Shown: positions 3,510 through 48,327 of the stretch, piece by piece
Numbering within the stretch: position 1 is the stretch's first letter
How the letters are laid out: each line of letters begins with the position of its first letter
Source of the DNA: Escherichia coli 042
Lineage (GTDB): Bacteria > Pseudomonadota > Gammaproteobacteria > Enterobacterales > Enterobacteriaceae
Direction: 5' to 3' (one strand)
Assembly: GCF_000027125.1 (NCBI RefSeq)
Contig: NC_017626.1
Length of the DNA stretch: 64,000 nucleotides
Made by a program: the position numbers and the translations under genes
Notes under the pieces: model-generated
Seen by the model: the letters and a program-made list of their open reading frames with translations, nothing else
Told to the model about the DNA's origin: nothing
The model's database searches: none

Positions 3510-3513
3510 ATAA

Positions 3514-4929: not shown

Positions 4930-4930
4930 T

Positions 4931-30222: not shown

Positions 30223-30227
30223 GACGA

Positions 30228-31367: not shown

Positions 31368-31545
31368 TGTTTATTTATCACTTTGGCAGAGTAATTATCC
31401 TGTGCACTATTAATAGCAATGTCGCCATGCACATTTACCTTGCAGTTAATTGAATAAAAATTTAACTGGCATCAGTCCTAAAAAAATTGATTTCATCCGC
31501 AGGCTATTGACAGAATAATTCAGACTGGTCTTTCAGGCATCCAGA

Positions 31546-31584
31546 CACGCTACCGCCCCTGGCTTTTTAGCTACCAATACACTG
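31546..31584 (-). promoter_or_regulatory. JUMPstart element with ops (GGCGGTAGCGTG) in the wza leader
   Basis: Minus-strand sequence CAGTGTATTGGTAGCTAAAAAGCCAGGGGCGGTAGCGTG; shares the ...AGCCAGGGGCGGTAGCGTG core with the element at 7230-7268. Confidence 0.85.
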
Positions 31585-31769
31585 ATTTAGCTTAATTTTT
31601 AAAACCCTCTCAACATACAGTCGTTGATGAGAAAGGGTTATTGCGGAAATTAACTTCCGAATATAAGGTGACATTATGGTAATTGAATATTGGCTCTCCA
31701 ATAATGCAGGAGGAAGTGTTACAGCTAACGGAATAGCAGGCAAGGTAACAATTCGGCAATTGGCTATTT

Positions 31770-31785
31770 TTAAGAATTATATTAA
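31770..31785 (-). promoter_or_regulatory. candidate RcsAB-box-like site upstream of wza
   Basis: TAAGAATTATATTAAG partly resembles the RcsAB box consensus TaAGaatatTCctA; the match is weak and the position is not verified. Confidence 0.25.
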
Positions 31786-32025
31786 GTGTCATTCAATATG
31801 GTTTTTAGGAGTTTCTTTAGGTTGACAATATTTAATATAGTGTCTCCACATGCGATATTTCTTAAATAATGTTTTATTATTACCACTTTTAATTCAGGGA
31901 TAATGTGAGGTTATAAACCTCAAATAATATGAGATAAATAGTGCTGCAACATTGCATTTTTGCCCCGATTTATCCATGATCGAATTGTGACATTTGTCAT
32001 ACAACGAATAGGTTTTGTACTTACT

Positions 32026-33609
32026 ATGGAATGGATTGCCGATCCGTCTATCTGGGCCGGGTTAATCACGCTGATTGTGATCGAACTGGTCCTCGGCATT
32101 GATAACCTGGTCTTTATTGCCATCCTCGCCGAAAAACTACCGCCGAAGCAGCGCGACCGCGCACGGGTTACCGGGCTGCTGCTGGCGATGTTAATGCGCC
32201 TGTTACTGCTGGCGTCAATCTCCTGGCTGGTCACCCTGACTCAACCGCTGTTCAGCTTCCGCTCGTTTACCTTTAGCGCCCGCGACTTAATCATGCTGTT
32301 TGGTGGTTTCTTCCTGTTGTTCAAAGCCACGATGGAGCTTAACGAACGGCTGGAAGGGAAAGACAGCAATAACCCCACGCAACGCAAAGGTGCGAAGTTC
32401 TGGGGGGTGGTGACACAAATTGTGGTACTGGACGCCATCTTCTCACTCGACTCAGTGATTACCGCCGTCGGGATGGTCGACCATTTACTGGTCATGATGG
32501 CCGCCGTGGTTATCGCTATCAGCCTGATGTTGATGGCCAGCAAGCCGTTAACCCAGTTCGTTAACAGTCACCCGACCATCGTTATTCTCTGCTTAAGCTT
32601 CCTGTTGATGATTGGCTTTAGCCTGGTGGCGGAAGGTTTCGGCTTCGTCATTCCGAAAGGCTACCTGTACGCTGCCATTGGTTTCTCGGTGATGATCGAG
32701 GCGCTCAATCAGTTGGCTATCTTTAACCGGCGACGTTTTCTTTCCGCTAACCAGACGCTGCGCCAGCGGACTACCGAAGCGGTAATGCGCCTGCTTAGCG
32801 GGCAAAAAGAAGATGCGGAACTGGACGCCGAAACCGCGTCCATGCTGGTGGATCATGGTAACCAGCAGATCTTTAATCCGCAGGAACGGCGGATGATTGA
32901 GCGGGTACTTAATCTTAACCAGCGTACTGTCAGCAGCATTATGACGTCGCGCCACGATATTGAGCATATCGATCTCAACGCGCCGGAAGAAGAAATCCGC
33001 CAGTTGCTGGAGCGAAATCAGCATACGCGGCTGGTGGTTACTGATGGCGATGACGCAGAAGATTTGCTCGGTGTTGTTCACGTTATCGACCTGCTACAAC
33101 AGTCTCTGCGCGGCGAACCGCTCAACCTGCGGGTGTTGATTCGCCAGCCGCTGGTGTTCCCGGAAACCTTGCCGTTGTTACCTGCCCTGGAGCAGTTCCG
33201 TAATGCTCGCACACACTTTGCTTTTGTGGTGGATGAGTTTGGTTCAGTGGAAGGGATTGTGACATTAAGTGACGTCACTGAAACCATTGCCGGTAACTTA
33301 CCGAACGAAGTGGAAGAGATCGACGCCCGCCATGATATTCAGAAGAATGCGGACGGTTCCTGGACGGCGAATGGTCATATGCCACTGGAAGATCTGGTGC
33401 AATATGTGCCGCTACCGCTGGATGAGAAACGCGAATATCACACCATTGCCGGGCTGCTGATGGAATATTTGCAGCGTATTCCAAAACCTGGCGAAGAAGT
33501 TCAGGTGGGGGATTATTTGCTTAAAACGTTGCAGGTGGAAAGCCATCGCGTGCAGAAGGTGCAGATTATACCGCTGCGTAAGGATGGCGAGATGGAGTAC
33601 GAGGTGTGA
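32026..33609 (+). CDS. yegH: inner-membrane TerC-family protein with CBS/CorC domains (UPF0053)
   Basis: Start trimmed to [13 protein letters not shown] (ATG at 32026), 527 aa; N-terminal membrane domain followed by a soluble C-terminal region. Confidence 0.85.
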
Positions 33610-33946
33610 TGGTATCGGCCATTTTACCCAATGCTGCGTAACGCCTTATAACTTCAGCAATGAAGCGATGTCTGTGGTACATGGACATCACAGCGGGGGT
33701 GTGGGTCCGGCTGTAAATCGCCGAATCGTTTCCTGTAGGCCGGGGCAGCCCACATGGATGTGGGCTGAGGGCGCGTTTTACAGGGATGTTACCTCGCGCC
33801 CGTACCCGATAGCCGAAAGGAATAAGATGAGGGAACCGCGCCAGCGGCGATTTACCGCCGGGAGCCCGGGTTGCCAGGGTGGTGGCGATTGAGCCACCCT
33901 GGCACGTTCACCGGCTTGAGCGTTCCATAGTAGCGAGGAACATCAA

Positions 33947-34168
33947 GTGAACGGAACAGCCTTCGATCTTACATATTCAGAATATAATGGTGCCGCCGCT
34001 CGCGATGCTGATGGGATCTATCGCGTCATGTATGTCGCAAAATTTGAAGAAGCGGTTTACGTATTGCATTGTTTTCAAAAGAAAACACAGACTACCAGTC
34101 AATCGGATATTGATTTAGCCAAACGACGCTATAAAGAACTTGTTCAGGAGCGGAAAAATGAAAATTGA
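33947..34168 (+). CDS. RelE/HigB-2 (Gp49-like) family toxin, apparently N-terminally truncated (possible remnant)
   Basis: C-terminal core ...GIYRVMYVAKFEEAVYVLHCFQKKTQTTSQSDIDLAKRRYKEL carries the LHxFxKKTQ signature. The frame is closed by an in-frame TGA at 33917-33919 and the first start is GTG at 33947, leaving only 73 aa. Confidence 0.5.
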   Translation: MNGTAFDLTYSEYNGAAARDADGIYRVMYVAKFEEAVYVLHCFQKKTQTTSQSDIDLAKRRYKELVQERKNEN

Positions 34169-34448
34169 AACCTTTGATAGTGTGTGGGATGCGGTGAGTG
34201 ACACCCCTGAACAAGCGGAAAATATGCGGATCCGTGCCGAACTTGTTACGATCATTAATAACTGGATTGAACAACAAGGGTTTAGCCAGGCTCAGGCAGC
34301 GTCTGCTTTAGGGGTCACTCAACCTCGCATATCTGAACTTGCCAGAGGTAAGATCCAGATCTTTAGTATCGATAAATTGATCACCATGATGGCTCATGCA
34401 GGATTGCATATTCAACGTATTGAAGTTCAATATCCACATGCTGCTTAG
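34158..34448 (+). CDS. HigA-2-like XRE-family helix-turn-helix antitoxin
   Basis: MKIETFDSVWDAVSDTPEQAENMRIRAEL...GFSQAQAASALGVTQPRISELARGKIQIFSIDKL fits the small HTH antitoxin pattern; AGGAG Shine-Dalgarno at 34146-34150; ATG at 34158 overlaps the toxin ORF 3' end. Confidence 0.7.
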   Translation: MKIETFDSVWDAVSDTPEQAENMRIRAELVTIINNWIEQQGFSQAQAASALGVTQPRISELARGKIQIFSIDKLITMMAHAGLHIQRIEVQYPHAA

Positions 34449-34459
34449 TACTATAAATA

Positions 34460-34489
34460 CAGATGGCGACAAATTGACGCCGCCATCTG
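34460..34489. terminator. hairpin between the convergent antitoxin gene and asmA (possible bidirectional terminator)
   Basis: CAGATGGCG...CGCCATCTG inverted repeat; no strong U-tract, so the call is tentative. Confidence 0.35.
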
Positions 34490-34500
34490 CATAACTTGTC

Positions 34501-36354
34501 TTACATCTTCTCCAGCAACTTCTTCACATCTTTGCCATTGCGGGAATCTTTATTCCGCTCGGCCCAGTCATTCAGGCGACGTTTCGCTTCGTCCTGTAAG
34601 TGTTTACGCAGTAACTGATCCACTTGCAGACTGTAATTGAGTTGCTGCCAGTTGCCATAAACCCGCAGCGGTACTGGCGTTTCTTTGAGGAAATCAATCA
34701 GTTTGCTTTCCCCGTTCCAGCCACCCACGACCCGAATATCAAACTGGGTGTCGCAGGTTTGATCTGCCAGATTCAACATACCTTCCCCTGTAAGCGCCAG
34801 CACAGGCGATTGACCTTGCATGTCGTTTAACGTCACGACGCCATCCTTCAACATCAAATCGGTGGTAAAGCGGTCAAGACGCGTCACGTTATCAAAGTTT
34901 TCAGCGGCCTTCACATCACCACCATTACGCTCTACCGCTTGCTGAATCATCTGCTGGAAGTTCATCCCTTCCATGCGCGTGTCGGTCATTTCGACATGTG
35001 CCTGTCCTTGCCAGTTGTGGCGGAATGCGTCGGCATCTATGTCAGCACCGGAGAAATCACCAGCCAGTGACATCTTTCCAGTCAACGAAATCGGATAGTT
35101 AAACGCCTTCAGAATGGTGCCAATCTCAACGTTTTCCAGCCGGGGCTGGAAGTTTATCCGCGGATTTATTGATGTCGCGTCCAGCGCGCCCGGCAGTGAA
35201 ACCTGTCCACCGTTAAGTTTGCCCTGCAGTTGAGTAATTTCCAGCAGACCCGACTTGTTGGTCATTTGCGTGGCAACATCTGTAAAATTCATTCCGCGCC
35301 AGCGCACGTTACTGGCCTGCAACAAAATATCAGCCGTAAAGCCTTGCAGTCCCTGATAGGCCGGTTCATCAATACGCGAAGAAATGACCGGGCGCGGCAA
35401 CGTTGATTGGCTCTGCCCCTGCTGCGCGGCACCGTTTTCACCGTTCGCTGTTTCATTAAGCGGGATGAGGTTGTCAAGATTCAGTTGCGGAAATTGCAGT
35501 CTCAGCTGCCATTCCGGTTGCTCTGTCAGCGTGACCTGTGCTTGCCCGCTCAGCGTACTGTCATTGGCGGTCAAACTAATTTGGTTAAATGAAAGGCGTT
35601 TATGTGACTCCTGCCACTGGGCCTGGAAACTCCCCTGCCCCTGAATACCTTGTTTTGGTAAATCTGCACCCTGCAACTGCCAGTTAACTTGTTCAATAGC
35701 CGCCGTTAAATCATGCGGATAATCAGAAGCATCTACCGTACCGTTAAGGGATATCGTGAGATCGCGCTGATCGCGATTAACCCGCCCGGAGAACTCAAAT
35801 GAACCACGATGTTGGGGATCTTGTTCCATTTGCAGGCGAATATTGCGGATTGTCACCTGCTCGTCATCTTCATGCTGGAACACCAGCACGCTGTCCGCCA
35901 CCTTAAGACTGGATATATCAAACGACCATCCGCGATCGTCTGACAGATCCGGCAAGGTATTGTCGCGCGGTGCAACCGGAGCGTCTTCACTGCGCACCGC
36001 TTCCGTCTGCGGCGTCAGTTGAATCACTGCCCCTTTTAGCATCACCTGCTTAACGCTCAGTTGATGACTCAGCAGTGGTAAAAGCGCCACGTCCAGACGC
36101 ATGTTGTCTGCGCGAACCAGTGGCTGGCTCGCGCCCTGGGCAGTGAGAGACATTCGCCCGGAGAGGATACTAAGCTGCGGCCAGACGTGCCAACGCAGTG
36201 GCCCGTCGAGCTGCAATTGATAACCGCTACGTGCAGCAACTTGCTTGACCATATAGTCGCGGAAATCATTCGGATTCACCAGCAACACTAACGCAGATAA
36301 CCCGGTCACCAGCACGACCAGGAGTATCATCAGCGTCGTCAGAAATCGTCTCAT
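34501..36354 (-). CDS. asmA: outer-membrane assembly protein AsmA
   Basis: 617 aa; N-terminal signal anchor; matches AsmA length and position. Confidence 0.9.
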   Translation of the reverse strand: MRRFLTTLMILLVVLVTGLSALVLLVNPNDFRDYMVKQVAARSGYQLQLDGPLRWHVWPQLSILSGRMSLTAQGASQPLVRADNMRLDVALLPLLSHQLSVKQVMLKGAVIQLTPQTEAVRSEDAPVAPRDNTLPDLSDDRGWSFDISSLKVADSVLVFQHEDDEQVTIRNIRLQMEQDPQHRGSFEFSGRVNRDQRDLTISLNGTVDASDYPHDLTAAIEQVNWQLQGADLPKQGIQGQGSFQAQWQESHKRLSFNQISLTANDSTLSGQAQVTLTEQPEWQLRLQFPQLNLDNLIPLNETANGENGAAQQGQSQSTLPRPVISSRIDEPAYQGLQGFTADILLQASNVRWRGMNFTDVATQMTNKSGLLEITQLQGKLNGGQVSLPGALDATSINPRINFQPRLENVEIGTILKAFNYPISLTGKMSLAGDFSGADIDADAFRHNWQGQAHVEMTDTRMEGMNFQQMIQQAVERNGGDVKAAENFDNVTRLDRFTTDLMLKDGVVTLNDMQGQSPVLALTGEGMLNLADQTCDTQFDIRVVGGWNGESKLIDFLKETPVPLRVYGNWQQLNYSLQVDQLLRKHLQDEAKRRLNDWAERNKDSRNGKDVKKLLEKM

Positions 36355-36375
36355 GGTATCCTCAATGGGCCTGAA

Positions 36376-36957
36376 TTAGTCTTTATCGATTCGGCTGGCT
36401 ACCGCGCCCTGCTGGTTGCGATATTTCGCATCTTCACGGCGGTTGTAAGGTCGCGCCGCCGGGCCGGAAAGCGGCTCAAAGCTCAGCGCACCAATTAACA
36501 TGCCCGGACGCAGCGCCAGCGGCAGCTTACCGGAGTTGTAGAACTCCAGCACAATACAGCCAGACCAGCCCGGATCGATACGGTGCGCGGTGACGTGCAC
36601 CATCAGCCCCAGACGCGCCAGTGAGGAACGACCGTCCAGCCAGCCCACCAGATCGGCTGGCAGCGTCACCGACTCCAGCGTCACCGCCAGCGCCAGCTCT
36701 CCTGGGTGAAGATAAAACGCCTCGCTTTCATCGAGTACGATCTCATCGCTCATCACGCGGTCAAGCGCGGCGCTCACTTCATCTTTGGGACCGCTCAGAT
36801 CGATAAACGCTGCCGTGTGACCACGGAAGGTACGAAATTTATTGCCCAGGCGCACATCCACCGTCGCGCCATTAATACGCTCCACTGGCGGACGTGGGTT
36901 GATCGACAAACGGCCTTCATCAAGCCAGGCTTCAATATCTCGGTCACACAGACGCAT
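36376..36957 (-). CDS. dcd: dCTP deaminase
   Basis: 193 aa; [18 protein letters not shown]-terminus of Dcd. Confidence 0.92.
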
Positions 36958-37048
36958 GGCATTTTCTCCTTTCGTGCATCACTCCCTTAACGCCAATTAC
37001 GTCAAGGGCATACCAGGTTATCACTGAACGGTACACAATTTATCAAGC

Positions 37049-37690
37049 TTATTCAAAGAACTGACTTATTTTCGCTTTCAATATATCGATGGCGATGCGG
37101 TTTTTCCCGCCGCGTGGCACGATAATGTCCGCATATTGTTTAGAAGGCTCAATGAATTGCAGGAACATCGGGCGCACGGTTTTTTGATATTGCGCCATCA
37201 CGGAATCCATTGAACGCCCACGCTCGTTAACGTCACGCTTGATGCGGCGCATCAGACAGATATCCAGCGGGGTATCAACGAAAATTGAGAAGTTAAGTTC
37301 ATCACGCAAACGCGCATCCGTCAGCAGCAAAATGCCTTCGAGAATGATGACTTTCTTCGGCTCAACCGTCACCGTTTCTTTCATACGCGTATGTTCAACA
37401 TAGCTGTAAACCGGCAGGTCAATTGCCGAGCCGCGTTTCAATGCTTGTAAATGCTCAAGCAGCAGGCTGTGATCCATCGCGCTGGGATGGTCGTAGTTGG
37501 TCTTAACGCGTTCTTCCATCGACAGATGGCTTTGATCTTTGTAATAGCAGTCTTCGGGAATTACGCCGATGTGTTCATCACCGACTTGCTCACGTAATTC
37601 ACGATAAAGGGTACTGGCAATAAGACTCTTGCCGGAAGCCGATGCGCCAGCGATACCGATAATGACGCACTGATGAGACTGATCAGTCAT
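37049..37690 (-). CDS. udk: uridine/cytidine kinase
   Basis: Start trimmed to [22 protein letters not shown] (ATG at 37690), 213 aa; Walker A P-loop. Confidence 0.9.
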
Positions 37691-38007
37691 ATATTTAGCG
37701 ACCTGATTAACCTGGATGTTAGGAAGGGGGCGACGAAGCGCCAAACGCGGCAATTATAGGGATTTCATCCGCCTGATACCAGTCGAATAGCGTTGCCGCG
37801 CGCTCAGAGTTAATTGTTGACGAAGAATTCCCGGTGGCAAATTACGTTGATCAGTTTTATACAAGGTAAAAAATGTTATACGCCGTTGCGCAAATTATCC
37901 GCCTTTACGTCACTTTATGTGCAATTCGCATATAAAATGTAAAACTTTTGTACTAGCATAAACACAGAAACGAATACTGGCGACCTGGTCTTGCGGATAA
38001 AGCGGTA

Positions 38008-41000
38008 ATGAGCAAACAATCACAGCATGTATTAATTGCCCTGCCCCACCCGCTGCTTCACCTGGTCAGTTTAGGTTTAGTCTCGTTTATCTTTACCCTT
38101 TTCTCGCTTGAGCTTTCGCAGTTTGGCACCCAACTTGCCCCATTGTGGTTCCCGACGTCCATCATGATGGTGGCGTTTTATCGCCATGCCGGGCGCATGT
38201 GGCCGGGGATTGCGCTGAGCTGCTCGCTGGGAAATATCGCCGCATCCATCCTGCTTTTTTCCACCAGCTCGCTGAACATGACCTGGACGACCATCAATAT
38301 TGTTGAAGCCGTGGTCGGGGCAGTGCTACTGCGTAAATTACTGCCGTGGTATAACCCCTTGCAAAATCTGGCTGACTGGCTGCGTCTGGCACTCGGCAGC
38401 GCCATTGTTCCGCCTCTGTTGGGGGGGGGTTCTGGTTGTCCTGCTGACGCCCGGAGACGATCCTCTCAGGGCATTTTTGATATGGGTACTGTCAGAATCC
38501 ATCGGCGCACTGGCACTGGTGCCACTGGGATTGTTATTTAAACCACACTATCTGCTGCGCCATCGCAACCCACGGTTGCTTTTTGAGTCGCTGCTCACGT
38601 TAGCCATCACACTGACGTTAAGCTGGCTTTCGATGCTGTATCTGCCGTGGCCTTTTACTTTCATTATTGTGCTGTTGATGTGGAGCGCCGTGCGCCTGCC
38701 ACGAATGGAAGCCTTTTTGATCTTCCTTACCACGGTGATGATGGTGTCACTGATGATGGCCGCTGATCCCTCCCTGCTTGCTACGCCGCGTACATACCTG
38801 ATGAGCCATATGCCGTGGCTACCGTTTTTGCTGATCCTGCTGCCCGCCAACATCATGACCATGGTGATGTATGCCTTTCGTGCGGAACGCAAACACATTT
38901 CCGAAAGCGAAACCCGCTTTCGGAACGCGATGGAATATTCCGCCATCGGCATGGCATTAGTGGGCACCGAGGGGCAATGGCTGCAATCCAACAAAGCGCT
39001 CTGCCAGTTTCTCGGTTACAGTCAGGAAGAACTGCGCGGACTCACCTTTCAGCAACTGACCTGGCCGGAGGATCTCAATAAAGATCTGCAACAGGTTGAA
39101 AAGCTGATCAGCGGTGAAATAAACACCTATTCAATGGAAAAACGCTACTACAACCGCAATGGCGATGTTGTCTGGGCGTTGCTTGCCGTCTCACTGGTGC
39201 GCCACACCGATGGTACGCCGCTCTATTTTATCGCTCAGATTGAAGACATTAACGAGCTAAAACGCACCGAACAGGTGAACCAGCAACTGATGGAGCGCAT
39301 CACGCTGGCTAACGAAGCGGGCGGGATTGGCATCTGGGAGTGGGAGCTAAAGCCGAATATTTTTAGCTGGGATAAGCGGATGTTCGAGCTGTATGAAATT
39401 CCTCCGCATATCAAACCGAACTGGCAGGTGTGGTACGAGTGCGTGCTGCCGGAAGATCGCCAGCACGCCGAAAAAGTGATTCGCGATTCATTGCAATCAC
39501 GCTCTCCCTTTAAACTGGAATTTCGCATTACCGTGAAAGACGGCATCCGCCATATCCGCGCCCTCGCCAACCGGGTACTGAATAAAGAAGGCGAAGTCGA
39601 ACGTCTGCTCGGCATTAATATGGATATGACCGAGGTTAAACAGCTTAACGAGGCATTGTTTCAGGAAAAAGAGCGCCTGCACATTACGCTGGACTCCATC
39701 GGTGAAGCCGTGGTCTGTATTGATATGGCGATGAAAATTACCTTTATGAATCCGGTGGCGGAGAAGATGAGCGGCTGGACGCAGGAAGAAGCATTAGGTG
39801 TTCCGCTCCTGACGGTGTTGCATATTACTTTTGGCGACAACGGACCATTAATGGAGAACATTTACAGTGCCGACACCTCACGTTCCGCGATTGAACAAGA
39901 TGTGGTGTTGCACTGTCGGAGCGGCGGCAGCTACGACGTGCATTACAGTATTACGCCGTTAAGTACTCTGGACGGCAGCAATATAGGCTCGGTTCTGGTG
40001 ATTCAGGACGTCACCGAATCGCGTAAAATGCTGCGCCAGCTGAGCTACAGCGCCTCCCATGATGCACTGACGCATCTCGCCAATCGCGCCAGTTTTGAGA
40101 AGCAACTACGCATCCTGCTGCAAACGGTAAACAGTACACATCAGCGACATGCCCTGGTGTTTATCGATCTTGATCGCTTTAAAGCGGTGAATGACAGCGC
40201 CGGGCACGCCGCTGGCGACGCTTTACTGCGCGAACTGGCGTCATTGATGCTGAGTATGCTGCGCTCCAGCGACGTGCTAGCGCGACTCGGTGGCGATGAA
40301 TTTGGTCTGCTGCTGCCAGATTGTAATGTCGAAAGTGCGCGTTTTATCGCTACACGTATTATCAGCGCCGTGAATGACTATCACTTTATCTGGGAAGGAC
40401 GTGTACATCGGGTAGGTGCCAGTGCCGGGATTACCTTGATTGATGACAACAATCATCAGGCGGCTGAAGTGATGTCGCAGGCTGATATCGCCTGTTATGC
40501 CTCCAAAAATGGTGGACGGGGCCGGGTGACGGTTTACGAACCGCAGCAAGCTGCCGCACATAGCGAACGGGCGGTGATGTCGCTTGATGAACAGTGGCGG
40601 ATGATTAAAGAGAATCAGTTGATGATGATCGCCCGCGGTGTCGCTTCGCCGCGGATCCCGGAAGCGCGTAATTTGTGGCTGATTTCACTTAAGCTCTGGA
40701 GTTGCGAAGGCGAGATTATTGATGAACAAACATTTCGTCGTAGCTTCAGCGATCCGGCACTTAGCCATGCTCTTGACCGACGGGTATTCCACGATTTTTT
40801 CCAGCAGGCCGCAAAAGCGGTTGCCAGTAAAGGCTTAAGCATCGCCCTCCCCCTTTCCGTTGCCGGTTTGAGTAGCGCCACGCTGGTGAATGAACTAATT
40901 GAGCAGCTGGAAAATAGCCCTCTACCACCACGGTTATTACATCTGATTATTCCGGCAGACGCGATTTTAGATCACGCAGAAAGCGTGCAAAAACTGCGGC

Positions 41001-41326
41001 TGGCAGGATGTCGGATCGTATTCAGTCAGGTGGGCCGCGATCTGCAAATCTTCAACTCGCTGAAAGCGAATATGGCAGATTACCTGCTACTTGATGGTGA
41101 GTTATGCGCCAACGTGCAGGGAAATTTGATGGATGAGATGCTGATTACGATCATTCAGGGGCACGCTCAGCGGCTCGGGATGAAGATCATCGCCGGGCCA
41201 GTCGTTTTACCCTTAGTGATGGATACGCTTTCTGGCATCGGCGTCGATCTGATTTATGGCGATGTGATTGCCGATGCCCAACCGCTGGATTTGCTGGTGA
41301 ATAGCAGTTATTTCGCGATTAACTGA
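38008..41326 (+). pseudogene. dgcE: diguanylate cyclase DgcE (MASE1-PAS-GGDEF-EAL), interrupted by a +1 frameshift in a G9 homopolymer at 38431-38439
   Basis: N-terminal ORF 38008-38541 reads ...SAIVPPLLGGGSGCPADARRR* while frame 38300-41326 continues ...VLVVLLTPGDDPLRAF... through the GGDEF (RLGGDEFG) and EAL regions. Deleting one G restores a 1105-codon reading frame. Confidence 0.8.
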
Positions 41327-41343
41327 GGGAGCGTTTGCCCATT

Positions 41344-41368
41344 GCCTGATGCGACGTATCAGGCCTAC
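41344..41368. repeat. single REP unit at the alkA 3' end
   Basis: GCCTGATGCGACGTATCAGGCCTAC palindromic unit. Confidence 0.6.
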
Positions 41369-42222
41369 AATTCGTCCGTTCCGTCTGGTTGCCAGCCTTC
41401 TGTATACCAGATATGCAACAGCGCATAAGAACGCCAGGGCTTCCAGCGTTCGGCATAACGGCGGATTTGTGCCGGTGTCATTCCCGGAAATCGCTGTTTA
41501 ATCAGATAATCATCCGGCAGGAAAACATCTTTCGCCTGCCAGCCACGTAAGGCGAAATAATTCGCCGTCCAGCGCCCGATACCCGGAAAAGTTTGCAGCG
41601 TTTTCATCGCTTGTTCTACGTCGCCCGGAATTGTCATTGGTAAGGTGCCCTCCAGCGCCGCATTTGCCAGATGAATCAGTGCCTCTGCCCGTTTCAACGG
41701 CATACCTAACGCTTTTAATGCCTGCGGGTCGGCTGCAGCCAGCCGCTGAGGCGTGGGGAAGCAGACATAATCCGGAAAATCATCCAGCCGTTCGCCATAA
41801 AGCTGTGCCACTCTGGCGGTCAATTTTGCCGCCATCGCCACGCTCACCAGTTGGCCTAAAATCGCCCGCACGCCCTGCTCAAAAGCATCAACACTGCCGG
41901 GTAAACGCAATCCGGGCCGCGCCGCGCCTAACTTGCCCAACGCACCGTTAACAATCTGCGGGTGACATTGCAGATCAAACAGGCGGCTCATTTTCGCCAG
42001 ACACTCTGCGGCAACAGGTTCTAAACCTGCACTTAAATTTATGTGCAGAGTATGGCGGGCTATATCCGGAATAGCAGTCACCACGCCGCGATATTCGCCC
42101 ACCGCCAGACTACGGGCATAATAATCGTCAGCGACCGTTTCCACACCGTTCACCGCACGGGCGGCGAGAAATCCCAACATCCACGACCAGTCATACGGCG
42201 GCTGCCAGTTCAGGGTATACAT
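41365..42222 (-). CDS. alkA: 3-methyladenine DNA glycosylase II
   Basis: 285 aa; MYTLNWQPPYDWSWMLGFLAARAV N-terminus of AlkA. Confidence 0.9.
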   Translation of the reverse strand: MYTLNWQPPYDWSWMLGFLAARAVNGVETVADDYYARSLAVGEYRGVVTAIPDIARHTLHINLSAGLEPVAAECLAKMSRLFDLQCHPQIVNGALGKLGAARPGLRLPGSVDAFEQGVRAILGQLVSVAMAAKLTARVAQLYGERLDDFPDYVCFPTPQRLAAADPQALKALGMPLKRAEALIHLANAALEGTLPMTIPGDVEQAMKTLQTFPGIGRWTANYFALRGWQAKDVFLPDDYLIKQRFPGMTPAQIRRYAERWKPWRSYALLHIWYTEGWQPDGTDEL

Positions 42223-42274
42223 CGCATCTCCTTGTTAATCCGCTTTCAGCATAAACGTTATTCAGACGCTACGC

Positions 42275-42282
42275 TTTGCTTT
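42275..42282 (-). promoter_or_regulatory. Ada box (AAAGCAAA) in the alkA promoter
   Basis: Minus-strand AAAGCAAA about 50 bp upstream of the alkA start, matching the alkA-type Ada site. Confidence 0.6.
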
Positions 42283-42355
42283 CATATTCCGGTTGTCGCG
42301 ACGGCAACATTTCGCTAAAGTCACGCCCCTTCTTCACCGGCATGGGGATTATTTC

Positions 42356-43708
42356 GTGTTTATTGGTTTTGATTACGGTACAGCAAACTGTTCAGTGGCG
42401 GTTATGCGCGACGGTAAGCCGCAATTACTGAAAATGGAAAACGACAGCACGCTGCTGCCTTCAATGCTTTGCGCGCCAACGCGTGAAGCGGTAAGCGAAT
42501 GGCTGTACCGCCATCATGATGTTCCGGCAGACGACGATGAAACGCAGGCGCTGTTGCGTCGGGCGATTCGTTATAACCGCGAAGAAGATATCGATGTTAC
42601 GGCGAAAAGCGTGCAGTTCGGTCTTTCCTCACTGGCACAGTACATTGATGATCCAGAAGAGGTGTGGTTTGTGAAATCACCAAAATCATTCCTCGGTGCC
42701 AGCGGCTTAAAACCGCAGCAGGTAGCGCTGTTTGAGGATCTGGTCTGCGCAATGATGTTGCACATTCGCCAGCAGGCGCAGGCGCAGCTGCCGGAGGCAA
42801 TTACTCAGGCGGTGATTGGTCGCCCGATCAACTTCCAGGGGCTGGGCGGCGATGAAGCAAACGCCCAGGCGCAAGGGATTCTGGAACGCGCGGCGAAGCG
42901 TGCCGGGTTTAAGGATGTGGTATTCCAGTACGAGCCGGTCGCGGCTGGGCTGGATTACGAAGCCACCTTGCAGGAAGAAAAACGGGTGCTGGTGGTGGAT
43001 ATCGGCGGTGGTACGACTGACTGTTCATTGCTGCTGATGGGGCCGCAGTGGCGTTCGCGTCTCGATCGTGAAGCCAGCCTGCTGGGTCACAGTGGTTGCC
43101 GTATTGGCGGTAACGATCTGGATATCGCACTGGCGTTTAAAAACCTGATGCCGTTACTGGGCATGGGTGGCGAAACCGAAAAAGGCATCGCCCTGCCGAT
43201 TCTGCCGTGGTGGAATGCGGTTGCCATCAACGACGTTCCTGCACAGAGTGATTTCTACAGTAGTGCCAACGGTCGTCTGCTTAACGACCTGGTACGCGAT
43301 GCCCGCGAACCGGAAAAAGTGGCCCTGTTACAGAAAGTCTGGCGTCAGCGTTTAAGCTATCGCCTGGTACGTAGCGCAGAAGAGAGCAAAATTGCGCTTT
43401 CAAGCGTAGCGGAAACCCGCGCCTCACTGCCGTTTATCAGCGATGAACTGGCTACGCTGATTAGCCAGCAAGGGCTGGAAAGCGCCCTCAGCCAGCCACT
43501 GGCGCGGATTCTGGAACAGGTGCAACTGGCGCTGGATAACGCCCAGGAAAAACCGGACGTTATCTACCTGACCGGCGGTAGCGCCCGTTCGCCGCTGATT
43601 AAAAAAGCGCTGACAGAACAGTTGCCGGGCATTCCGATTGCAGGTGGCGATGACTTTGGCTCCGTCACCGCCGGGCTGGCACGCTGGGCGGAAGTGGTGT
43701 TTCGTTAA
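42356..43708 (+). CDS. yegD: Hsp70-family (actin-like ATPase) protein YegD
   Basis: GTG start at 42356 gives 450 aa beginning FIGFDYGTANCSVAV; ORF-track frame extended upstream to 42293. Confidence 0.85.
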   Translation: MFIGFDYGTANCSVAVMRDGKPQLLKMENDSTLLPSMLCAPTREAVSEWLYRHHDVPADDDETQALLRRAIRYNREEDIDVTAKSVQFGLSSLAQYIDDPEEVWFVKSPKSFLGASGLKPQQVALFEDLVCAMMLHIRQQAQAQLPEAITQAVIGRPINFQGLGGDEANAQAQGILERAAKRAGFKDVVFQYEPVAAGLDYEATLQEEKRVLVVDIGGGTTDCSLLLMGPQWRSRLDREASLLGHSGCRIGGNDLDIALAFKNLMPLLGMGGETEKGIALPILPWWNAVAINDVPAQSDFYSSANGRLLNDLVRDAREPEKVALLQKVWRQRLSYRLVRSAEESKIALSSVAETRASLPFISDELATLISQQGLESALSQPLARILEQVQLALDNAQEKPDVIYLTGGSARSPLIKKALTEQLPGIPIAGGDDFGSVTAGLARWAEVVFR

Positions 43709-43720
43709 TTGAAAACTGGC

Positions 43721-45667
43721 TCAGCAACGGCTTAAATCAGCCTGCGCCTGAGCCAGTTTTTCTGCCGCCTGACGTAACGGTTCCATCAACGGCATGGTCC
43801 GTGCTGGAGCATGAAGGCGGAATCGCTGCAACTCTGTCGCACCGACAGTCAGCGCCGATTCCAGCCGATGTCGTTTGGCGGCCATTTTTGCCATTACCGC
43901 TTGTCTGTCTGCAGGCGTTACCGCTTCGTTCGGCCTGAAAACAAAACGGCGTTCGCAACTCGCTTTCCAGTCGATAACCGCCTGGGTCAGATGATCACCA
44001 AAACCTTTAACTTGCTTAACGCTCCGTCGGGTAACGTCTGCCGCCGTTTCAATACCAAAGGACCGTAACGCCGCTTTACGCGCAGGGCCAACGCCGGGAA
44101 TAGAGGCAACATCAATAAAAAATCCCTCCAGAAACTTCTGCTTCTGCCGTTCCCTTGCGGTGTCCTGAAGTGCTGCCAGATCGCGCTTTTCTTCTTCCGG
44201 TAACCCAAGAATTTCGTCCTTCATTTTTTCGAGCATCGTCCGTTTGGCAATAAAACCTTCCAGCCCGCCCAACTGTTGGATCTGGCTGACTAAATGGTCA
44301 TAGTCCATTTTTGCGCGATTAAAAGCCTCTCTTCGTCGCTGGACTTCTGCTTTGTACGCTTTGCTTGTCAGGCTGCCAATAATCCAGATAGCCGCCAGCA
44401 CGGGAACCAAAATGATATAACGCGGTTCTACCTGAAGGCCGCAAAGCAACAGCGATAACGCTGACAGTGTGATCTCAATCAGAATGATGTATTCACGCCG
44501 TAACAGGCCTAAAGGAAGCGGCCTGCCAGTCGGTTGGAAATGATCGGGTAATGGCAGTTGCAATGCTGGTGGTGCTACTGACGCCATCACCATCGCCCAG
44601 ACTTTCGCCAGCACAAAATCACCGCTGGTGGTAATGACCTCTTCGCCGAGATCAATAAAATAGATAACGCCTTGATTATCCAGCGCACACCACGGGCAGT
44701 CAGTCAAATGACCAGGGTAAACATGCATTGCCGAAACGGTACATTTCTTTAACTGTTGGCGTAGTAAATCAAGTGCCGCTACCCACGCTTTTGCCGTCGG
44801 ACGCCCGGTTGCCACGCCACTTTCCGTGAATGCCTGCTGAAACATGGCTTCAACATCGCCCGGTAACATCGACAGCGGAATAGATCGTGGCGGCGGTTTT
44901 AAACCACGTCGCTGATTATCTGACGCGTAGGCATAACGGAAATGGGCAATATCCGTCTCCAGCGCATTACCCGCATCAGAGATAAGCGGTACACCAGAAT
45001 AAGGATGCCGCCCACCAAACAAGACGTGAAAAATCAGCAACGCAAGGCCAAAATTATCGTGATTCGCGGTACGTTCAAAACCGACAAATGACGACAAGGT
45101 TTGTAGCTCTGGCGGCGTAAAATGCGACACGCCGACTTCGCATAAATGCAGTGTGCCATTGGCGTTAATCTGAAAGGAGTCGCTATCAATCAACACCACT
45201 TTGCTGTCACGGCCTACCATAAAGCTGTTCTGGTTTACGTCACCCACGACATGCCCGTGCTCGTGAACCGTAGCAAAAGATGACGCAATATTGCGCGCAA
45301 CATAGAGTAGAAAATCCCACGCACAATGAGGGTAACGTTGGCGACGATGTGCCGGGCTATAGATCATATGAATCGGTTCTTTACCAGAAACTTTTGGCAT
45401 CATAAAACCGATAACTTTTCCGCCTCGTCCACCGTGAAGCGTTGCCTGCGGCCAGGCGACATAATCCAGCAACTGTGCGTCAGCTGTCGCAGCCATAAAG
45501 GCAAGTTTGTCCTGTTTTAAGGCGGGTGGCGGCGTGTGATAAATCTTGGCGACGCTATCGACAAACTCCTCGATATCATAAACCGCGCCTTCACCACCTT
45601 TACCCAGTTCACGCCCGAGAGTGGTCAATTCACCTGTCGATGTAAATACTTTTATATTTGTCTTCAT
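43721..45667 (-). CDS. yegI: protein kinase-like protein YegI
   Basis: 648 aa; N-terminal kinase-like domain, a predicted transmembrane segment and a coiled-coil/helix-hairpin-helix-like C-terminus. Confidence 0.85.
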   Translation of the reverse strand: MKTNIKVFTSTGELTTLGRELGKGGEGAVYDIEEFVDSVAKIYHTPPPALKQDKLAFMAATADAQLLDYVAWPQATLHGGRGGKVIGFMMPKVSGKEPIHMIYSPAHRRQRYPHCAWDFLLYVARNIASSFATVHEHGHVVGDVNQNSFMVGRDSKVVLIDSDSFQINANGTLHLCEVGVSHFTPPELQTLSSFVGFERTANHDNFGLALLIFHVLFGGRHPYSGVPLISDAGNALETDIAHFRYAYASDNQRRGLKPPPRSIPLSMLPGDVEAMFQQAFTESGVATGRPTAKAWVAALDLLRQQLKKCTVSAMHVYPGHLTDCPWCALDNQGVIYFIDLGEEVITTSGDFVLAKVWAMVMASVAPPALQLPLPDHFQPTGRPLPLGLLRREYIILIEITLSALSLLLCGLQVEPRYIILVPVLAAIWIIGSLTSKAYKAEVQRRREAFNRAKMDYDHLVSQIQQLGGLEGFIAKRTMLEKMKDEILGLPEEEKRDLAALQDTARERQKQKFLEGFFIDVASIPGVGPARKAALRSFGIETAADVTRRSVKQVKGFGDHLTQAVIDWKASCERRFVFRPNEAVTPADRQAVMAKMAAKRHRLESALTVGATELQRFRLHAPARTMPLMEPLRQAAEKLAQAQADLSRC

Positions 45668-45867
45668 AATGTTTCAAGGGCAGTCATATTATATTTTAAT
45701 GAATAATAACACTGCCCATTATAATTATTTCTATATTGGAAGAGTCCCACTCAAGAATAAAAATGATAATGCAATTTCATCAGGATACAATTCAATTCCA
45801 ACCTGATAATGATTCACTTCCACAGGTTTTTTGCTAACTTTTACTACACAGGGATTCTGGAGAAAAA

Positions 45868-46329
45868 ATGAAAAAGATATTACTTATGTTGAGTCTGCTA
45901 TTTTTTACTACCGCGGGCTTTAGTGAAGTTTCGGATACGTTAGTGACGGGAGGTTATGATAAACAAGCGATGTCTGACGCCATTCAACATGCGCGGAAAG
46001 AAACCGATCAATTCATCGAAGTTATGAATAAAAAAGATGCAGATACTTTCGCAGTCAAAGCCCCGATAACCGATCACGGAAGAACCGAGCATTTCTGGCT
46101 TACGGATGTCACTTATTCTAACGGCATATTTATTGGCGTAATAAGCAATGACCCTGGTATTGTTACAAACGTAGAATATGGTCAGGAGTGGAAAATCAAG
46201 AAAGAAGATATTTCAGACTGGATGTATACGCGCGGGGATAAAATTTACGGCGGTTATACCATTGATCCTTTATTGGTCACCTATCCAAAAGAAGAAGCCG
46301 ACGAGCTAAGAGCAAAATTAGTTCGCTAA
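45868..46329 (+). CDS. yegJ: DUF2314-family secreted protein YegJ
   Basis: 153 aa with an N-terminal signal peptide (MKKILLMLSLLFFTTAGFS). Confidence 0.8.
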   Translation: MKKILLMLSLLFFTTAGFSEVSDTLVTGGYDKQAMSDAIQHARKETDQFIEVMNKKDADTFAVKAPITDHGRTEHFWLTDVTYSNGIFIGVISNDPGIVTNVEYGQEWKIKKEDISDWMYTRGDKIYGGYTIDPLLVTYPKEEADELRAKLVR

Positions 46330-46356
46330 CCAGCCATTATATTGATTGCTTAAACT

Positions 46357-46384
46357 GGCGGTTGAACTGTTGTCTTCAACCGCC
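46357..46384. terminator. hairpin between convergent yegJ and yegK (possible bidirectional terminator)
   Basis: GGCGGTTGAA-ctgttgtc-TTCAACCGCC, a 10-bp perfect stem. Confidence 0.4.
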
Positions 46385-46393
46385 ATGCGATGT

Positions 46394-47155
46394 TCATTCT
46401 GTCCACAGCGCCAGTGCCAACGTTTTATCATCATCGGTACGCTCGTTTACCGCCGGGCTGGACAAAAACTGCTTTAACAATTCAGGTAATAAATCGAGTT
46501 GTTCCTGCGTTGCTGACGCCAGCCCATTGAAAAACGGGGTAAAGAAAGGCACATGGGGAGAATTATCCAGCATATTTAACGCCAGCCGCTGGATACCATC
46601 CGTAAAAGCTGCAACTTTGTGCGCACGCTCAGTGCTGGTGAAAGTTTCCAGTCTGGAAACCGCATCTTCATCAGTAATGAAGTGTGTCATATTGGCATAT
46701 TCACCCACCATCGGCGTGAGCGGCAGTTGCAGACCGTGCCCCAAATCTACCACCACGCCGCCATCGCCAATCTGCATAATCAGGGTGCCATTAGCTGATG
46801 AAATCAATCCCATAAACGTGCAGGCAAAATCTCGAACAGCTAATTCTTTGGCTTCCGCCTCGGCAAAAAGTCGCTGACGAATAGTCAGCACAATATCCGT
46901 TGCGAGGACATCATTAAGCCCAAATTCCCCGCCCTGCACTTTTTGCATCATATAAGCCATCGCTTCATTGACGGCAAGCATCGCACCTTCGCCACCCTGC
47001 GAGACGCTACCTGCGCCATCGGCGACAAATAACGTCAATAATGGCTGCTGGTCATTTAGCCAGGCAACCTGCATCTGGCAGGCATCCTGGCAAGGCAAGT
47101 CCGCGCTGATGTGCGACGTTCCAACGGTTGATGCATAGACCAGACGCCAGCTCAC
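46394..47155 (-). CDS. yegK: PP2C-family Ser/Thr protein phosphatase YegK
   Basis: 253 aa; 4-nt overlap with yegL. Confidence 0.85.
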
Positions 47156-47811
47156 ACTGACGTCCAGCCTTTTGGCGCTTCCAGCACAACTTCCGTTCCC
47201 GGCGTGGAGCGGGAAACCGAACGCAGTGAACTGGATAACCAGCTAAACAGTTCACGGAATTGTAATCCCTGCAGTGGCAAAGGCTGACGAACGCTGATTT
47301 GTGCCAAAGTCTTCATATCCGCCCCCTGAACACCGATGGAAAAGAAGGCAAACTTCTTATCTTCTTCCCCCTGAAACACTTTGTTGGCGGCAGCCTGCCA
47401 CTCATCGGTTGGAGCGCCATCGGTGATCAGGAAAATCCACGGGCGATAATACGAAATACCATTTGCACGATACTCACGTTTGCGCTCCTCTACCATATCC
47501 AGGGCTTTGGTAATGGCAGCGCCCATTGGTGTATCGCCCTGGGCAAACAGGATGGGTGGGAAAAAATTAGCGGCGCTGGTAAAGGGTTGTTCCACATGCA
47601 CCGGGCCGAACGTCACAATGCCGAGTTCCACTCTTTTTAAGGCCAGCGGGTCGGCAAGCAGCTCATCGCGAAAGGTAACCAATCCGGCATTAAGTTCATT
47701 AATAGGTCTTCCGCTCATCGAGCCAGAAACATCCAGCAACAAAATGCAGGGGCAACGTGGTTCCGGGTTACTGGCAAAATCGCTGGTGGCAAACATGATT
47801 TGTTCGCTCAT
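47152..47811 (-). CDS. yegL: von Willebrand factor A domain protein YegL
   Basis: 219 aa; vWA MIDAS-like motif DVSGSMSG near the N-terminus. Confidence 0.85.
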
Positions 47812-47992
47812 AAGAAATCCTTTCTTAGAGAATTATTGAGGTCCGGTATCATACCGATTGCAATAATGAAATAAGAGCAAACGAAGAAACTTTCAGAATT
47901 AGGCCCGGCGGCGCAGAAAATTTTGCTATTCGCCTCGCAAGAACGAAGAGCCGTCGATTGACACTAAGGGCGGAGTGACATAATTTCAGGAG

Positions 47993-48134
47993 TGAGGGTT
48001 AGGGAGAGGTTTCCCCCTCCCCCTGGTGTTCTTAGTAAGCCTGGAAGCTAATCACTAAGAGTATCACCAGTATGATGACGTGCTTCATCATAACCCTTTC
48101 CTTATTAAAAGCCCTCTTCTCCGGGAGAGGGTTT
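47993..48134 (+). ncRNA. sibA: Sib antisense sRNA (type I antitoxin), unit 1 (SibA-like); coordinates approximate
   Basis: Sigma70-like promoter TTGACA (47958-47963), 17-nt spacer, TAATTT; fully antisense to ibs unit 1; ends at a stem-loop CCCTCT...AGAGGG followed by T residues. Confidence 0.7.
48032..48091 (-). CDS. ibsA: Ibs type I toxin peptide, 19 aa (MMKHVIILVILLVISFQAY)
   Basis: Manual translation of the minus strand; hydrophobic Ibs-family peptide encoded opposite the Sib RNA. Confidence 0.8.
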   Translation of the reverse strand: MMKHVIILVILLVISFQAY

Positions 48135-48327
48135 CCCGTTTCAGCGTCCCGCTGAAATCGTCGGCTTACCTCCTTTCGCCCTGAATGCAGTCTATCGCTA
48201 ACGCGTGAACAAAATAGTTTCCTCTGTGATTATTGCGTAACGACTCGCAAAGAATATTTGCTGGCAGGATCGCAGACTGCAAAGCCTGCAGATTGACAAT
48301 CTTATCGTGAAGGCATACTTTCAGGAG

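What the first reader, a model, noticed from the sequence alone, without database searches (positions are those of the whole stretch)
38420..38545. dgcE (yegE) split by a +1 frameshift inside a G9 homopolymer
The MASE1 N-terminal reading frame (from 38008) ends at 38541 after the run of nine G at 38431-38439. The remaining PAS-GGDEF-EAL part continues in the +1 frame to 41326. Removing a single G gives one 1105-codon ORF whose junction reads ...PPLLGGVLVVLLTPGDD. This is either a genuine inactivation, a slipped-strand (phase-variable) switch of a c-di-GMP enzyme, or a homopolymer sequencing error.
Basis: seen in the sequence. Interest (0 to 1): 0.6.

Follow-up and report, generated by a model that had tools for sequence, protein, structure and literature searches.

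The report
Frameshifted dgcE gene, poly-G slippage
One extra G in a run of guanines has broken the E. coli biofilm-signalling gene dgcE in this strain's lineage; it is a real, inherited mutation of a common and already catalogued kind, not a sequencing error and not a demonstrated genetic switch.

Summary
ORF1 (38008-38541, 177 aa) and the +1 frame open to 41326 are as described. Deleting one G gives a 1105-aa protein that differs from K-12 DgcE at 14 residues.

The frameshift is real. The same G9TT sequence occurs in five independent sequences (the window plus four independent assemblies) of this haplotype: draft genome, NCTC PacBio and two metagenome assemblies. Six other assemblies of the same haplotype carry G8TT and an intact gene. 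Tract length is perfectly linked to two SNPs (40357, 44996). These are therefore two sister clonal sub-lineages separated by one stably inherited slippage event, not frequent switching.

Most E. coli have an interrupted run (TTG GGG GGT GTT). Uninterrupted runs are rare derived alleles: G8TT, and G9T with V141G. They have been frameshifted repeatedly, to G9TT or G10T, on at least five dgcE haplotypes, including EAEC 042. PGAP already annotates these genes as 'frameshifted'. Published work lists dgcE among the most often pseudogenised E. coli genes.

The lesion lies in the MASE1 domain, whose deletion is a null for curli control. Loss of the DgcE input to csgD is therefore expected but was not tested here. 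This is an ordinary, known kind of lesion at a modestly interesting mutational hot spot.

The parts
38421..38429 (+). Run of nine G in dgcE codons 138-141 (TTG GGG GGG GG|T T..). This is the site of the +1 insertion. The intact sister lineage has G8 here, and K-12 has GGGGGGTG.
38008..38541 (+). ORF1, the truncated product: 140 native DgcE residues (TM1-4 and half of TM5 of MASE1) plus a 37-residue out-of-frame tail, ending at TAA 38539-38541. The exact 177-aa sequence is in NCBI nr and UniRef, named 'Putative diguanylate cyclase YegE'.
38429..41326 (+). Native downstream reading frame of dgcE (V141 to the stop at 41324-41326), now one base out of register with the start codon. It has no further stops or indels.
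38062..38890 (+). MASE1 transmembrane domain (residues 19-294 of the repaired protein), interrupted by the frameshift at residue 141.
   Evidence: hydropathy scan
38915..40024 (+). Three PAS regions (residues 303-416, 452-537, 555-672).
40052..40522 (+). GGDEF domain (residues 682-838), with the GGDEF motif intact in the repaired translation.
40700..41272 (+). EAL domain (residues 898-1088).
40357..40357 (+). Synonymous SNP linked to the tract state. It is T in all five G9TT sequences. It is C in all six G8TT sequences and in most outgroup haplotypes.
44996..44996 (+). Second linked SNP, in yegI. It is A in all G9TT sequences and in the outgroups, and G in all G8TT sequences.
38519..38521 (+). 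GTG that gene callers use as the start of a 935-aa 'ORF2'. It overlaps the end of ORF1 and has no Shine-Dalgarno-like sequence upstream, so it is a hypothetical restart only.
37049..37690 (-). udk, the upstream divergent neighbour (synteny marker).
41365..42222 (-). alkA, the downstream convergent neighbour (synteny marker).

Best explanation
dgcE (yegE) in this window is a pseudogene made by a single +1 replication-slippage insertion (G8 to G9) in codons 139-141, inside the fifth membrane helix of the MASE1 domain.

Shown: (1) The usual E. coli sequence here is TTG GGG GGT GTT, a G6 run interrupted by T. (2) In this strain's haplotype a synonymous GGT-to-GGG change fused it into an uninterrupted G8. 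(3) One sub-lineage then gained a ninth G and has passed it on clonally together with a linked SNP.

Sequence consequence: translation from the native start yields 140 native residues plus 37 junk residues and stops at 38541. The PAS-GGDEF-EAL part is out of register.

Inferred from published genetics: deleting MASE1 gives the same null phenotype as deleting dgcE. [quoted passage not shown]

Across the species, uninterrupted runs (G8TT, G9T) are rare derived alleles. They behave as a mutational hot spot and have been frameshifted independently on several haplotypes.
For: Anatomy.

Not an assembly artefact:
- Window 28519-51326 is identical to an NCBI draft genome (L039) and to a megahit metagenome contig (L042).
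- It differs only in the ibs/sib repeat region from a second metagenome scaffold (L040).
- It differs only by indel noise plus one SNP from an NCTC PacBio genome (L041).
- All of these carry G9TT.
- The 935-aa downstream product specific to this haplotype is indexed in 55 blocks of the collection.

Single stable event:
- Six independent assemblies of the same haplotype (L043-L048) carry G8TT and encode exactly the repaired 1105-aa protein.
- Tract state is perfectly linked to SNPs 40357 and 44996. Each sub-lineage carries one derived allele.
- Private SNPs within each sub-lineage come with no change in tract length.

Hot spot:
- K-12-type G6TGTT is an exact 94-mer in about 1416 of 5426 complete genomes.
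- G8TT is in 26, in-frame G9T in about 59, and G9TT in 1, a different haplotype at 96.7% identity.
- G10T is in about 91, including EAEC 042, and PGAP annotates it 'frameshifted'.
- Frameshifted tracts fall on at least five separate clades of the dgcE gene tree.
- The exact 177-aa product is indexed in 504 blocks, mostly on 2-200 kb contigs, i.e. short-read assemblies.

Literature:
- MASE1 deletion is a null for CsgD and matrix (PMC6510439).
- A different dgcE frameshift abolishes curli and is complemented by wild-type dgcE (PMC6029578).
- dgcE is among the most frequently pseudogenised genes in 2377 E. coli genomes (PMC13322260).
- It is annotated as a pseudogene in nine pathogenic strains (cited in PMC11327459).
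- Indel rate rises exponentially with run length in E. coli (PMC8510543).
Against: - No raw reads could be inspected, so within-culture heterogeneity at the tract is unknown.
- Both frame states exist among near-identical genomes. The downstream 965 codons carry no secondary lesion. That is expected for a recent mutation, but also for a reversible switch or a split gene that still works.
- In S. flexneri a disrupted dgcE still contributed measurable c-di-GMP (PMC11327459), so 'null' is an inference for this allele.
- Some tract-only differences between long-read assemblies may be sequencing errors: AR_0150 and AR_0151 differ at nothing else in 36 kb. The complete-genome counts for G9T versus G10T are therefore soft.
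Confidence: 0.8

Rival explanations
1. Slipped-strand phase variation. On this reading the uninterrupted G run is a reversible ON/OFF switch of DgcE, and so of curli/cellulose biofilm. It would flip often enough to matter within populations, and G9 is simply the OFF phase.
For: - The tract lies in the 5' part of the ORF, and every +/-1 change toggles the frame.
- ON and OFF versions exist on near-identical backgrounds in three lineages: the window lineage; N169 versus N137/N196, which differ by 1 SNP plus the tract in 40 kb; and AR_0150 versus AR_0151, which differ by the tract only in 36 kb.
- Many lengths are on record: G8TT, G9TT, G10TT, G9T, G10T and G11.
- The downstream ORF stays intact in every frameshifted allele examined.
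Against: - Within the window lineage the tract state is perfectly linked to two SNPs in 11 independent sequences, with no homoplasy.
- Clonal series are uniform: Ec-042 T0/T5/T20, four MRSN, five EC21Z and eight AR dog/cat isolates are all G10T.
- The run is not conserved. About 97% of complete genomes that match carry an interrupted run, so selection does not maintain it.
- E. coli is mismatch-repair proficient.
- The AR pair also shares a second, unrelated frameshift, so the tract varies there in an already dead gene or through sequencing error.
Confidence: 0.1
2. Homopolymer sequencing or assembly error. On this reading the real genome has G8 and an intact dgcE.
For: - G9 is the longest homopolymer in the window and the only run of 8 or more, exactly where a lone indel error would fall.
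- The NCTC PacBio assembly of the same lineage has 30 indels in 22.8 kb (26 in the 12.8 kb compared), which fragment asmA and yegI.
Against: - The same G9TT appears in a draft genome, two metagenome assemblies (one by megahit) and the PacBio genome.
- The same kinds of pipeline report G8TT in the sister sub-lineage, and the difference tracks two SNPs.
- No other gene in the 64 kb is split.
- The frameshifted product is found overwhelmingly on contigs of short-read-assembly size.
Confidence: 0.03
3. Broken in DNA but still functional. A fraction of full-length DgcE would be restored by RNA-polymerase slippage or +1 ribosomal slippage on the G run. Alternatively, an internally initiated protein lacking the first membrane helices (for example from GTG 38519) would still make c-di-GMP.
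For: - A run of nine G allows perfect re-pairing after a one-base slip (read from the sequence).
- The 965 downstream codons are intact.
- S. flexneri DGC pseudogenes, dgcE among them, raise c-di-GMP and give several protein products (PMC11327459).
Against: - No recoding signals are present. The RNA around and downstream of the run folds no better than shuffles (z = 0.07), there is no Rfam match, and no stop or rare codon sits at the slip site.
- No Shine-Dalgarno-like sequence precedes any candidate restart codon.
- DgcE lacking MASE1 is a null for csgD and matrix even though it is expressed (PMC6510439).
- The split arrangement is not conserved among orthologues.
Confidence: 0.07

Closest known systems
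dgcE/yegE pseudogenes in other E. coli and Shigella: G10T alleles such as EAEC 042, O157:H7 Sakai ECs_2874, S. flexneri S2255, and the soil-strain H486fs allele
   Same: The same gene is lost by small lesions in many lineages. PGAP already flags the poly-G alleles as 'frameshifted'. Loss of DgcE gives curli-negative strains (PMC6029578). dgcE is reported among the most often pseudogenised genes (PMC13322260; PMC11327459 citing Povolotsky & Hengge 2016).
   Different: The window's exact allele is G9TT, derived from G8TT. It is rare among complete genomes: one other case, on another haplotype. O157 Sakai carries a different +A insertion 45 nt downstream. S. flexneri carries an IS insertion. The soil strains carry 1456delC.
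Homopolymer-tract contingency loci and reversible frameshifts, for example poly-G tracts of Neisseria, Haemophilus and Campylobacter, the C-run of Bordetella bvgS, and the 7C tract of M. tuberculosis glpK (bioRxiv 10.1101/717272; PMC10334774; PMC1891110)
   Same: An intragenic mononucleotide run whose length sets the reading frame. Several lengths are seen in nature, and ON and OFF alleles occur on closely related backgrounds.
   Different: Here the run is not conserved in the species. The tract state is clonally stable and linked to SNPs in the one lineage that could be resolved. No switching rate is known, and the host has active mismatch repair.
Frameshifts corrected by transcriptional slippage, for example Shigella mxiE/spa13 T/A runs and endosymbiont poly-A tracts (recalled from the literature, not checked here)
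   Same: A long homopolymer sits at the frameshift site, so polymerase slippage could in principle restore the frame in some transcripts.
   Different: Known cases use A/T runs and a conserved split arrangement. This one is a G run, the split is not conserved, and no supporting signal was found.
Phase-variable c-di-GMP enzymes, for example C. difficile PdcB, controlled by an invertible element (PMC9286219)
   Same: A heritable on/off state of a c-di-GMP turnover enzyme would change many downstream phenotypes together.
   Different: That mechanism is site-specific inversion with demonstrated reversibility. Here it is a slippage indel with no demonstrated reversibility.

Membership tests
DgcE (YegE) orthologue | Located between udk and alkA, as in E. 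coli K-12 | tested here: met
   udk 37049-37690 (-), dgcE 38008-41326 (+), alkA 41365-42222 (-). K-12 has the same order.
DgcE (YegE) orthologue | Near-identity to K-12 DgcE over the full length once the frame is restored | tested here: met
   1105 aa, 14 differences, no gaps.
DgcE (YegE) orthologue | Domain order MASE1 - 3 PAS - GGDEF - EAL | tested here: met
   Pfam scan of the repaired protein.
DgcE (YegE) orthologue | A single uninterrupted ORF that encodes the active enzyme | tested here: not met
   The +1 frameshift at 38421-38429 leaves a 177-aa ORF1. It is therefore a pseudogene allele of dgcE.
Slipped-strand phase-variable (contingency) locus | A simple repeat inside the ORF or promoter whose length changes switch expression | tested here: met
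   In-silico lengths 5, 8 and 11 are in frame and all others truncate. Natural alleles of several lengths exist.
Slipped-strand phase-variable (contingency) locus | Tract length varies among very close relatives independently of the clonal frame (homoplasy) | tested here: not met
   Five G9TT and six G8TT sequences of one haplotype are perfectly partitioned by two SNPs. Clonal isolate series are uniformly G10T. The long-read pairs that differ only at the tract are ambiguous.
Slipped-strand phase-variable (contingency) locus | The repeat is maintained across the species or lineage | tested here: not met
   Most genomes carry the interrupted GGGGGGTG or AGGGGGTG. Uninterrupted runs are in about 3% of complete genomes.
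Slipped-strand phase-variable (contingency) locus | Measured high-frequency, reversible switching within a culture | not testable with these tools
   This needs read-level data or a reporter or fluctuation assay.
Programmed recoding (ribosomal frameshift or transcriptional slippage) | Stimulatory signals at the slip site (internal SD, stop or rare codon, downstream structure) | tested here: not met
   Fold z-score 0.07. No Rfam hit. The codons after the run are GGT TCT GGT TGT.
Programmed recoding (ribosomal frameshift or transcriptional slippage) | The two-frame arrangement is conserved among orthologues | tested here: not met
   The great majority of E. coli dgcE genes are single ORFs.
Sequencing artefact | Not reproducible in independent data sets or technologies | tested here: not met
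   G9TT is reproduced in four further independent assemblies. It is therefore not an artefact of one assembly.

The most novel reading that the evidence does not exclude
The uninterrupted G8-G10 run in some E. coli lineages acts as a true, reversible contingency switch of the master diguanylate cyclase DgcE, letting mismatch-repair-proficient E. coli toggle curli/cellulose biofilm capacity on ecological time-scales. The repeated ON/OFF pairs on near-identical backgrounds would then be its footprint. A weaker variant is that the split gene keeps a residual c-di-GMP output uncoupled from the RdcA/RdcB input.
Probability: 0.1. Interest if true: 0.6.

Novelty: already known. Interest (0 to 1): 0.25.

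Why it matters
[quoted passage not shown] A strain with this allele is therefore predicted to be matrix-poor at low temperature, which bears on environmental persistence, adhesion and host interaction.

For annotation, the practical lesson is that this split is a genuine lineage marker and should not be 'repaired'.

For evolution, the locus shows a clear sequence of steps. A harmless synonymous change (GGT to GGG), or a T-to-G change at the end of a run, lengthens a homopolymer. This creates a hot spot that then repeatedly knocks out a gene whose loss is evidently tolerated or favoured in many lineages. None of this changes current understanding; it adds detail to a known pattern of dgcE decay.

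Tried and rejected
1. Census by one query. Flank SNP haplotypes blur the identity bands, so I used allele-specific 70-95-nt queries and counted exact matches. I checked the subtraction of partial hits against listed rows. The counts for G9T and G10T cover one flank haplotype only and are lower bounds.

2. Metagenome scan with a variable-gap pattern. It gave only 9 hits, all of the K-12 type, so it was uninformative about tract lengths.

3. Povolotsky & Hengge 2016 and Lee et al. 2012 PNAS are not held. Their content is cited only second-hand or replaced by PMC8510543.

4. The literature search 'yegE + frameshift' was swamped by author names. PMC10459773 and PMC5635171 said nothing on dgcE lesions. 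No paper found describes the poly-G tract itself.

5. Recoding signals: the RNA fold and Rfam were negative. A scan for restart codons with an SD was also negative.

6. I first assumed G8TT was the species wild type and G10T a double mutant. Both were rejected once K-12 and the in-frame G9T allele were seen.

7. Shigella origin of the window was considered because no complete E. coli genome matched at 100%. It was rejected: the colanic-acid and neighbouring genes are intact, and exact matches exist in E. coli draft, NCTC and metagenome assemblies.

8. Statistical rarity of a G9 run was rejected as an argument, since 57% of shuffles contain a run of 9 or more.
Full report
**1. What is in the sequence**

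The window has a single run of nine G at 38421-38429.

- An ATG ORF runs 38008..38541 (177 aa). The +1 frame is open from 38300 to 41326.
- Deleting one G gives a 3318-nt ORF of 1105 codons with the junction PPLLGGVLVVLLTPGDD.
- The repaired protein differs from K-12 DgcE at 14 of 1105 positions with no gaps.
- It scans as MASE1 (19-294), three PAS regions, GGDEF (682-838) and EAL (898-1088).
- The gene sits between udk and alkA, as in K-12.
- The insertion falls in codons 139-141, in the fifth hydrophobic segment of MASE1.
- ORF1 therefore encodes 140 native residues plus a 37-residue Arg-rich out-of-frame tail.
- No other gene in the 64 kb looks split.
- A run of 9 or more is not improbable by composition alone (57% of shuffles). 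The significance comes from comparison with other genomes, not from statistics.

**2. Is it real?**

- Window 28519-51326 is base-for-base identical to an NCBI draft genome contig (GCA_036599305.1) and to a megahit metagenome contig (ERZ27265098).
- It matches a second metagenome scaffold (ERZ28619124) except in the repetitive ibs/sib region.
- It matches the NCTC PacBio genome LR134238.1 except for 30 indels in 22.8 kb (26 in the 12.8 kb first compared) and one SNP. Those indels fragment asmA and yegI there and are evidently errors.
- All of these carry G9TT.
- The 935-aa downstream product, which gene callers produce only when the gene is split, is indexed for this exact haplotype in 55 blocks of the protein-position collection.

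A one-off homopolymer error is therefore excluded.

**3. One event or a switch?**

The exact repaired 1105-aa protein exists on 15 contigs. Six of them were retrieved: two NCBI drafts, two Logan assemblies, one megahit contig and one metagenome scaffold. All six carry G8TT.

Across 5 G9TT and 6 G8TT sequences the tract state is perfectly linked to two SNPs.

- At 40357 the base is T with G9 and C with G8. C is also the state in most other haplotypes, so T is derived with G9.
- At 44996 the base is A with G9 and in the outgroups, and G with G8, so G is derived in the G8 clade.
- Private SNPs inside each group are not accompanied by tract changes.

This is the pattern of two sister clonal sub-lineages separated by a single slippage event that has been stably inherited. 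It is not the pattern of a rapidly flipping tract.

**4. The tract in the species**

K-12 reads TTG GGG GGT GTT, a G6 run interrupted by T. That exact 94-mer is in about 1416 of 5426 complete genomes. Most others differ only by flank SNPs or by TTA for TTG.

Uninterrupted runs are derived and rare.

| Allele | Change | Frame | Complete genomes |
|---|---|---|---|
| G8TT | synonymous GGT to GGG | intact | 26 |
| G9T | GTT to GGT, V141G | intact | about 59 |
| G9TT | +1 on G8TT | shifted | 1 (2013C-4830) |
| G10T | +1 on G9T | shifted | about 91, incl. EAEC 042 |

- 2013C-4830 is on a haplotype only 96.7% identical to the window, and it also has a 2-nt deletion at nt 78.
- PGAP annotates the G10T alleles 'frameshifted'.
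- O121-type G8TT and an APEC G10T share the same flank SNP.
- On a dgcE gene tree built without the tract, frameshifted alleles fall in at least five separate clades, several with an in-frame sister.
- The protein cluster also holds products of G10TT, G11 and other variants.
- The 177-aa product shared by G9TT and G10T is indexed in 504 blocks, mostly on contigs of 2-200 kb, i.e. short-read assemblies.
- For the UK_Dog/N169 haplotype the split form is indexed in 475 blocks against 39 for the intact G9T form.

The picture is a run that lengthens by T-to-G substitution at its edge. Transient-misalignment mutagenesis is the textbook mechanism for this; that is my inference. The longer run then suffers +1 slippage. 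This agrees with the exponential dependence of indel rate on run length in E. coli (PMC8510543).

Some tract-only differences between long-read assemblies may be errors or neutral drift in an already dead gene. AR_0150 and AR_0151 are identical over 36 kb apart from the tract, and both share another frameshift at nt 2080. N169 differs from N137/N196 by one SNP plus the tract in 40 kb.

**5. Consequence**

- Chromosomal deletion of the whole MASE1 domain gives the same null phenotype as deleting dgcE, for CsgD level, csgB::lacZ and macrocolony matrix, although the truncated protein is made (PMC6510439).
- A different natural dgcE frameshift (H486fs) abolishes curli and is fully complemented by wild-type dgcE (PMC6029578).

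Residual activity cannot be excluded. S. flexneri dgcE, disrupted by an IS element, still contributes c-di-GMP (PMC11327459). Here, however, I found no Shine-Dalgarno-like sequence before any candidate restart codon, no unusual RNA structure (z = 0.07) and no Rfam family.

**6. Comparison with what is known**

The gene is dgcE beyond doubt, and the allele is a pseudogene of it. Loss of dgcE is already documented:

- it is a pseudogene in nine pathogenic E. coli (Povolotsky & Hengge 2016, as cited in PMC11327459);
- it is among the most frequently pseudogenised genes in a 2377-genome pangenome (PMC13322260);
- O157:H7 Sakai ECs_2874 carries a separate +A insertion 45 nt downstream of the tract;
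- CFS3246 has an IS1 truncation.

The exact truncated protein is in nr and UniRef.

As a mechanism it resembles homopolymer contingency loci. It fails two of their defining features that could be tested here: homoplasy among close relatives, and conservation of the tract. The key feature, a measured switching rate, cannot be tested with these tools.

I found no paper that describes the poly-G tract itself as the recurrent lesion site. That detail may be a small addition, but the thing itself is known.

**7. Verdict**

- Observation: confirmed, with the run coordinates corrected.
- Interpretation: the 'genuine inactivation' option is right (confidence about 0.8). 'Sequencing error' is rejected (about 0.03). 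'Phase-variable switch' is not supported but not excluded (about 0.1). Residual function through recoding or restart is about 0.07.
- Novelty: already known.
- Interest: low to modest (0.25). It comes mainly from the recurrent, run-length-dependent knock-out of E. coli's master diguanylate cyclase.

Noticed in passing
window 1-7200: The end of an O-antigen gene cluster: manB, manC, a wzy of the O17/O44/O73/O77/O106 family, and glycosyltransferases. It is 100% identical to complete genomes such as ECA64, CB6837 and O17_K12a. By contrast, the best complete-genome match for 30000-50000 is only about 97.5-97.9%. The region is therefore a mosaic of differently related segments.
   Followed up: partly
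window 33947-34448: A small two-gene module, Gp49/HigB-like (73 aa) and HTH_37/HigA-like (96 aa), lies between yegH and asmA. The yegH-asmA gap is about 890 nt here. It is about 450 nt with no annotated gene in N169 and 2013C-4830. This is probably an inserted toxin-antitoxin pair.
   Followed up: partly
L015 (O157:H7 Sakai) dgcE nt 458, about 45 nt downstream of the tract: The Sakai yegE pseudogene (ECs_2874) keeps the interrupted K-12-type tract. It is broken by a different single-A insertion, GATCCTCATCAGG versus GATCCTCTCAGG.
   Followed up: yes
L029 (E. coli 2013C-4830) dgcE nt 78-79 and the tract: This is the only complete genome with G9TT. It also has a 2-nt (GT) deletion near the 5' end of dgcE, and PGAP starts its pseudogene 133 nt downstream. 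The gene thus carries two independent lesions.
   Followed up: yes
L024/L025 (AR_0150, AR_0151) dgcE nt 2080: Both isolates share a 1-nt C deletion in dgcE. Over 36 kb they differ from each other only in tract length, G10T versus G9T. This is either drift in a dead gene or long-read homopolymer error.
   Followed up: partly
L041 / L013 (LR134238.1, NCTC PacBio genome): Relative to the window, this assembly has 26 single-base indels in 12.8 kb (30 in 22.8 kb). They fragment asmA, yegH, yegI and mdtA into pieces. It looks like an unpolished long-read assembly and is a caution for any pseudogene call made from it.
   Followed up: partly
window 48030-48770 (ibs/sib repeat region between yegL and mdtA): Three Ibs toxin genes are called here. 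Other assemblies of the same lineage differ only in this repeat region, with clustered mismatches and indels (L040, L043). This suggests repeat copy-number variation or collapse during assembly.
   Followed up: no
L002 (E. coli CFS3246): dgcE is truncated after about 1.1 kb by an IS1A insertion, and the deletion reaches into alkA. This is another independent route to loss of dgcE.
   Followed up: no
L022 (E. coli N137) position 36270, mdtC: A G5-to-G4 deletion frameshifts mdtC in N137 but not in its near-identical relatives N169 and N196. It is either a recent mutation or a sequencing error.
   Followed up: no
window 63004-63010: The second-longest G/C homopolymer in the window, a G7 run. Its coding context was not examined.
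   Followed up: no
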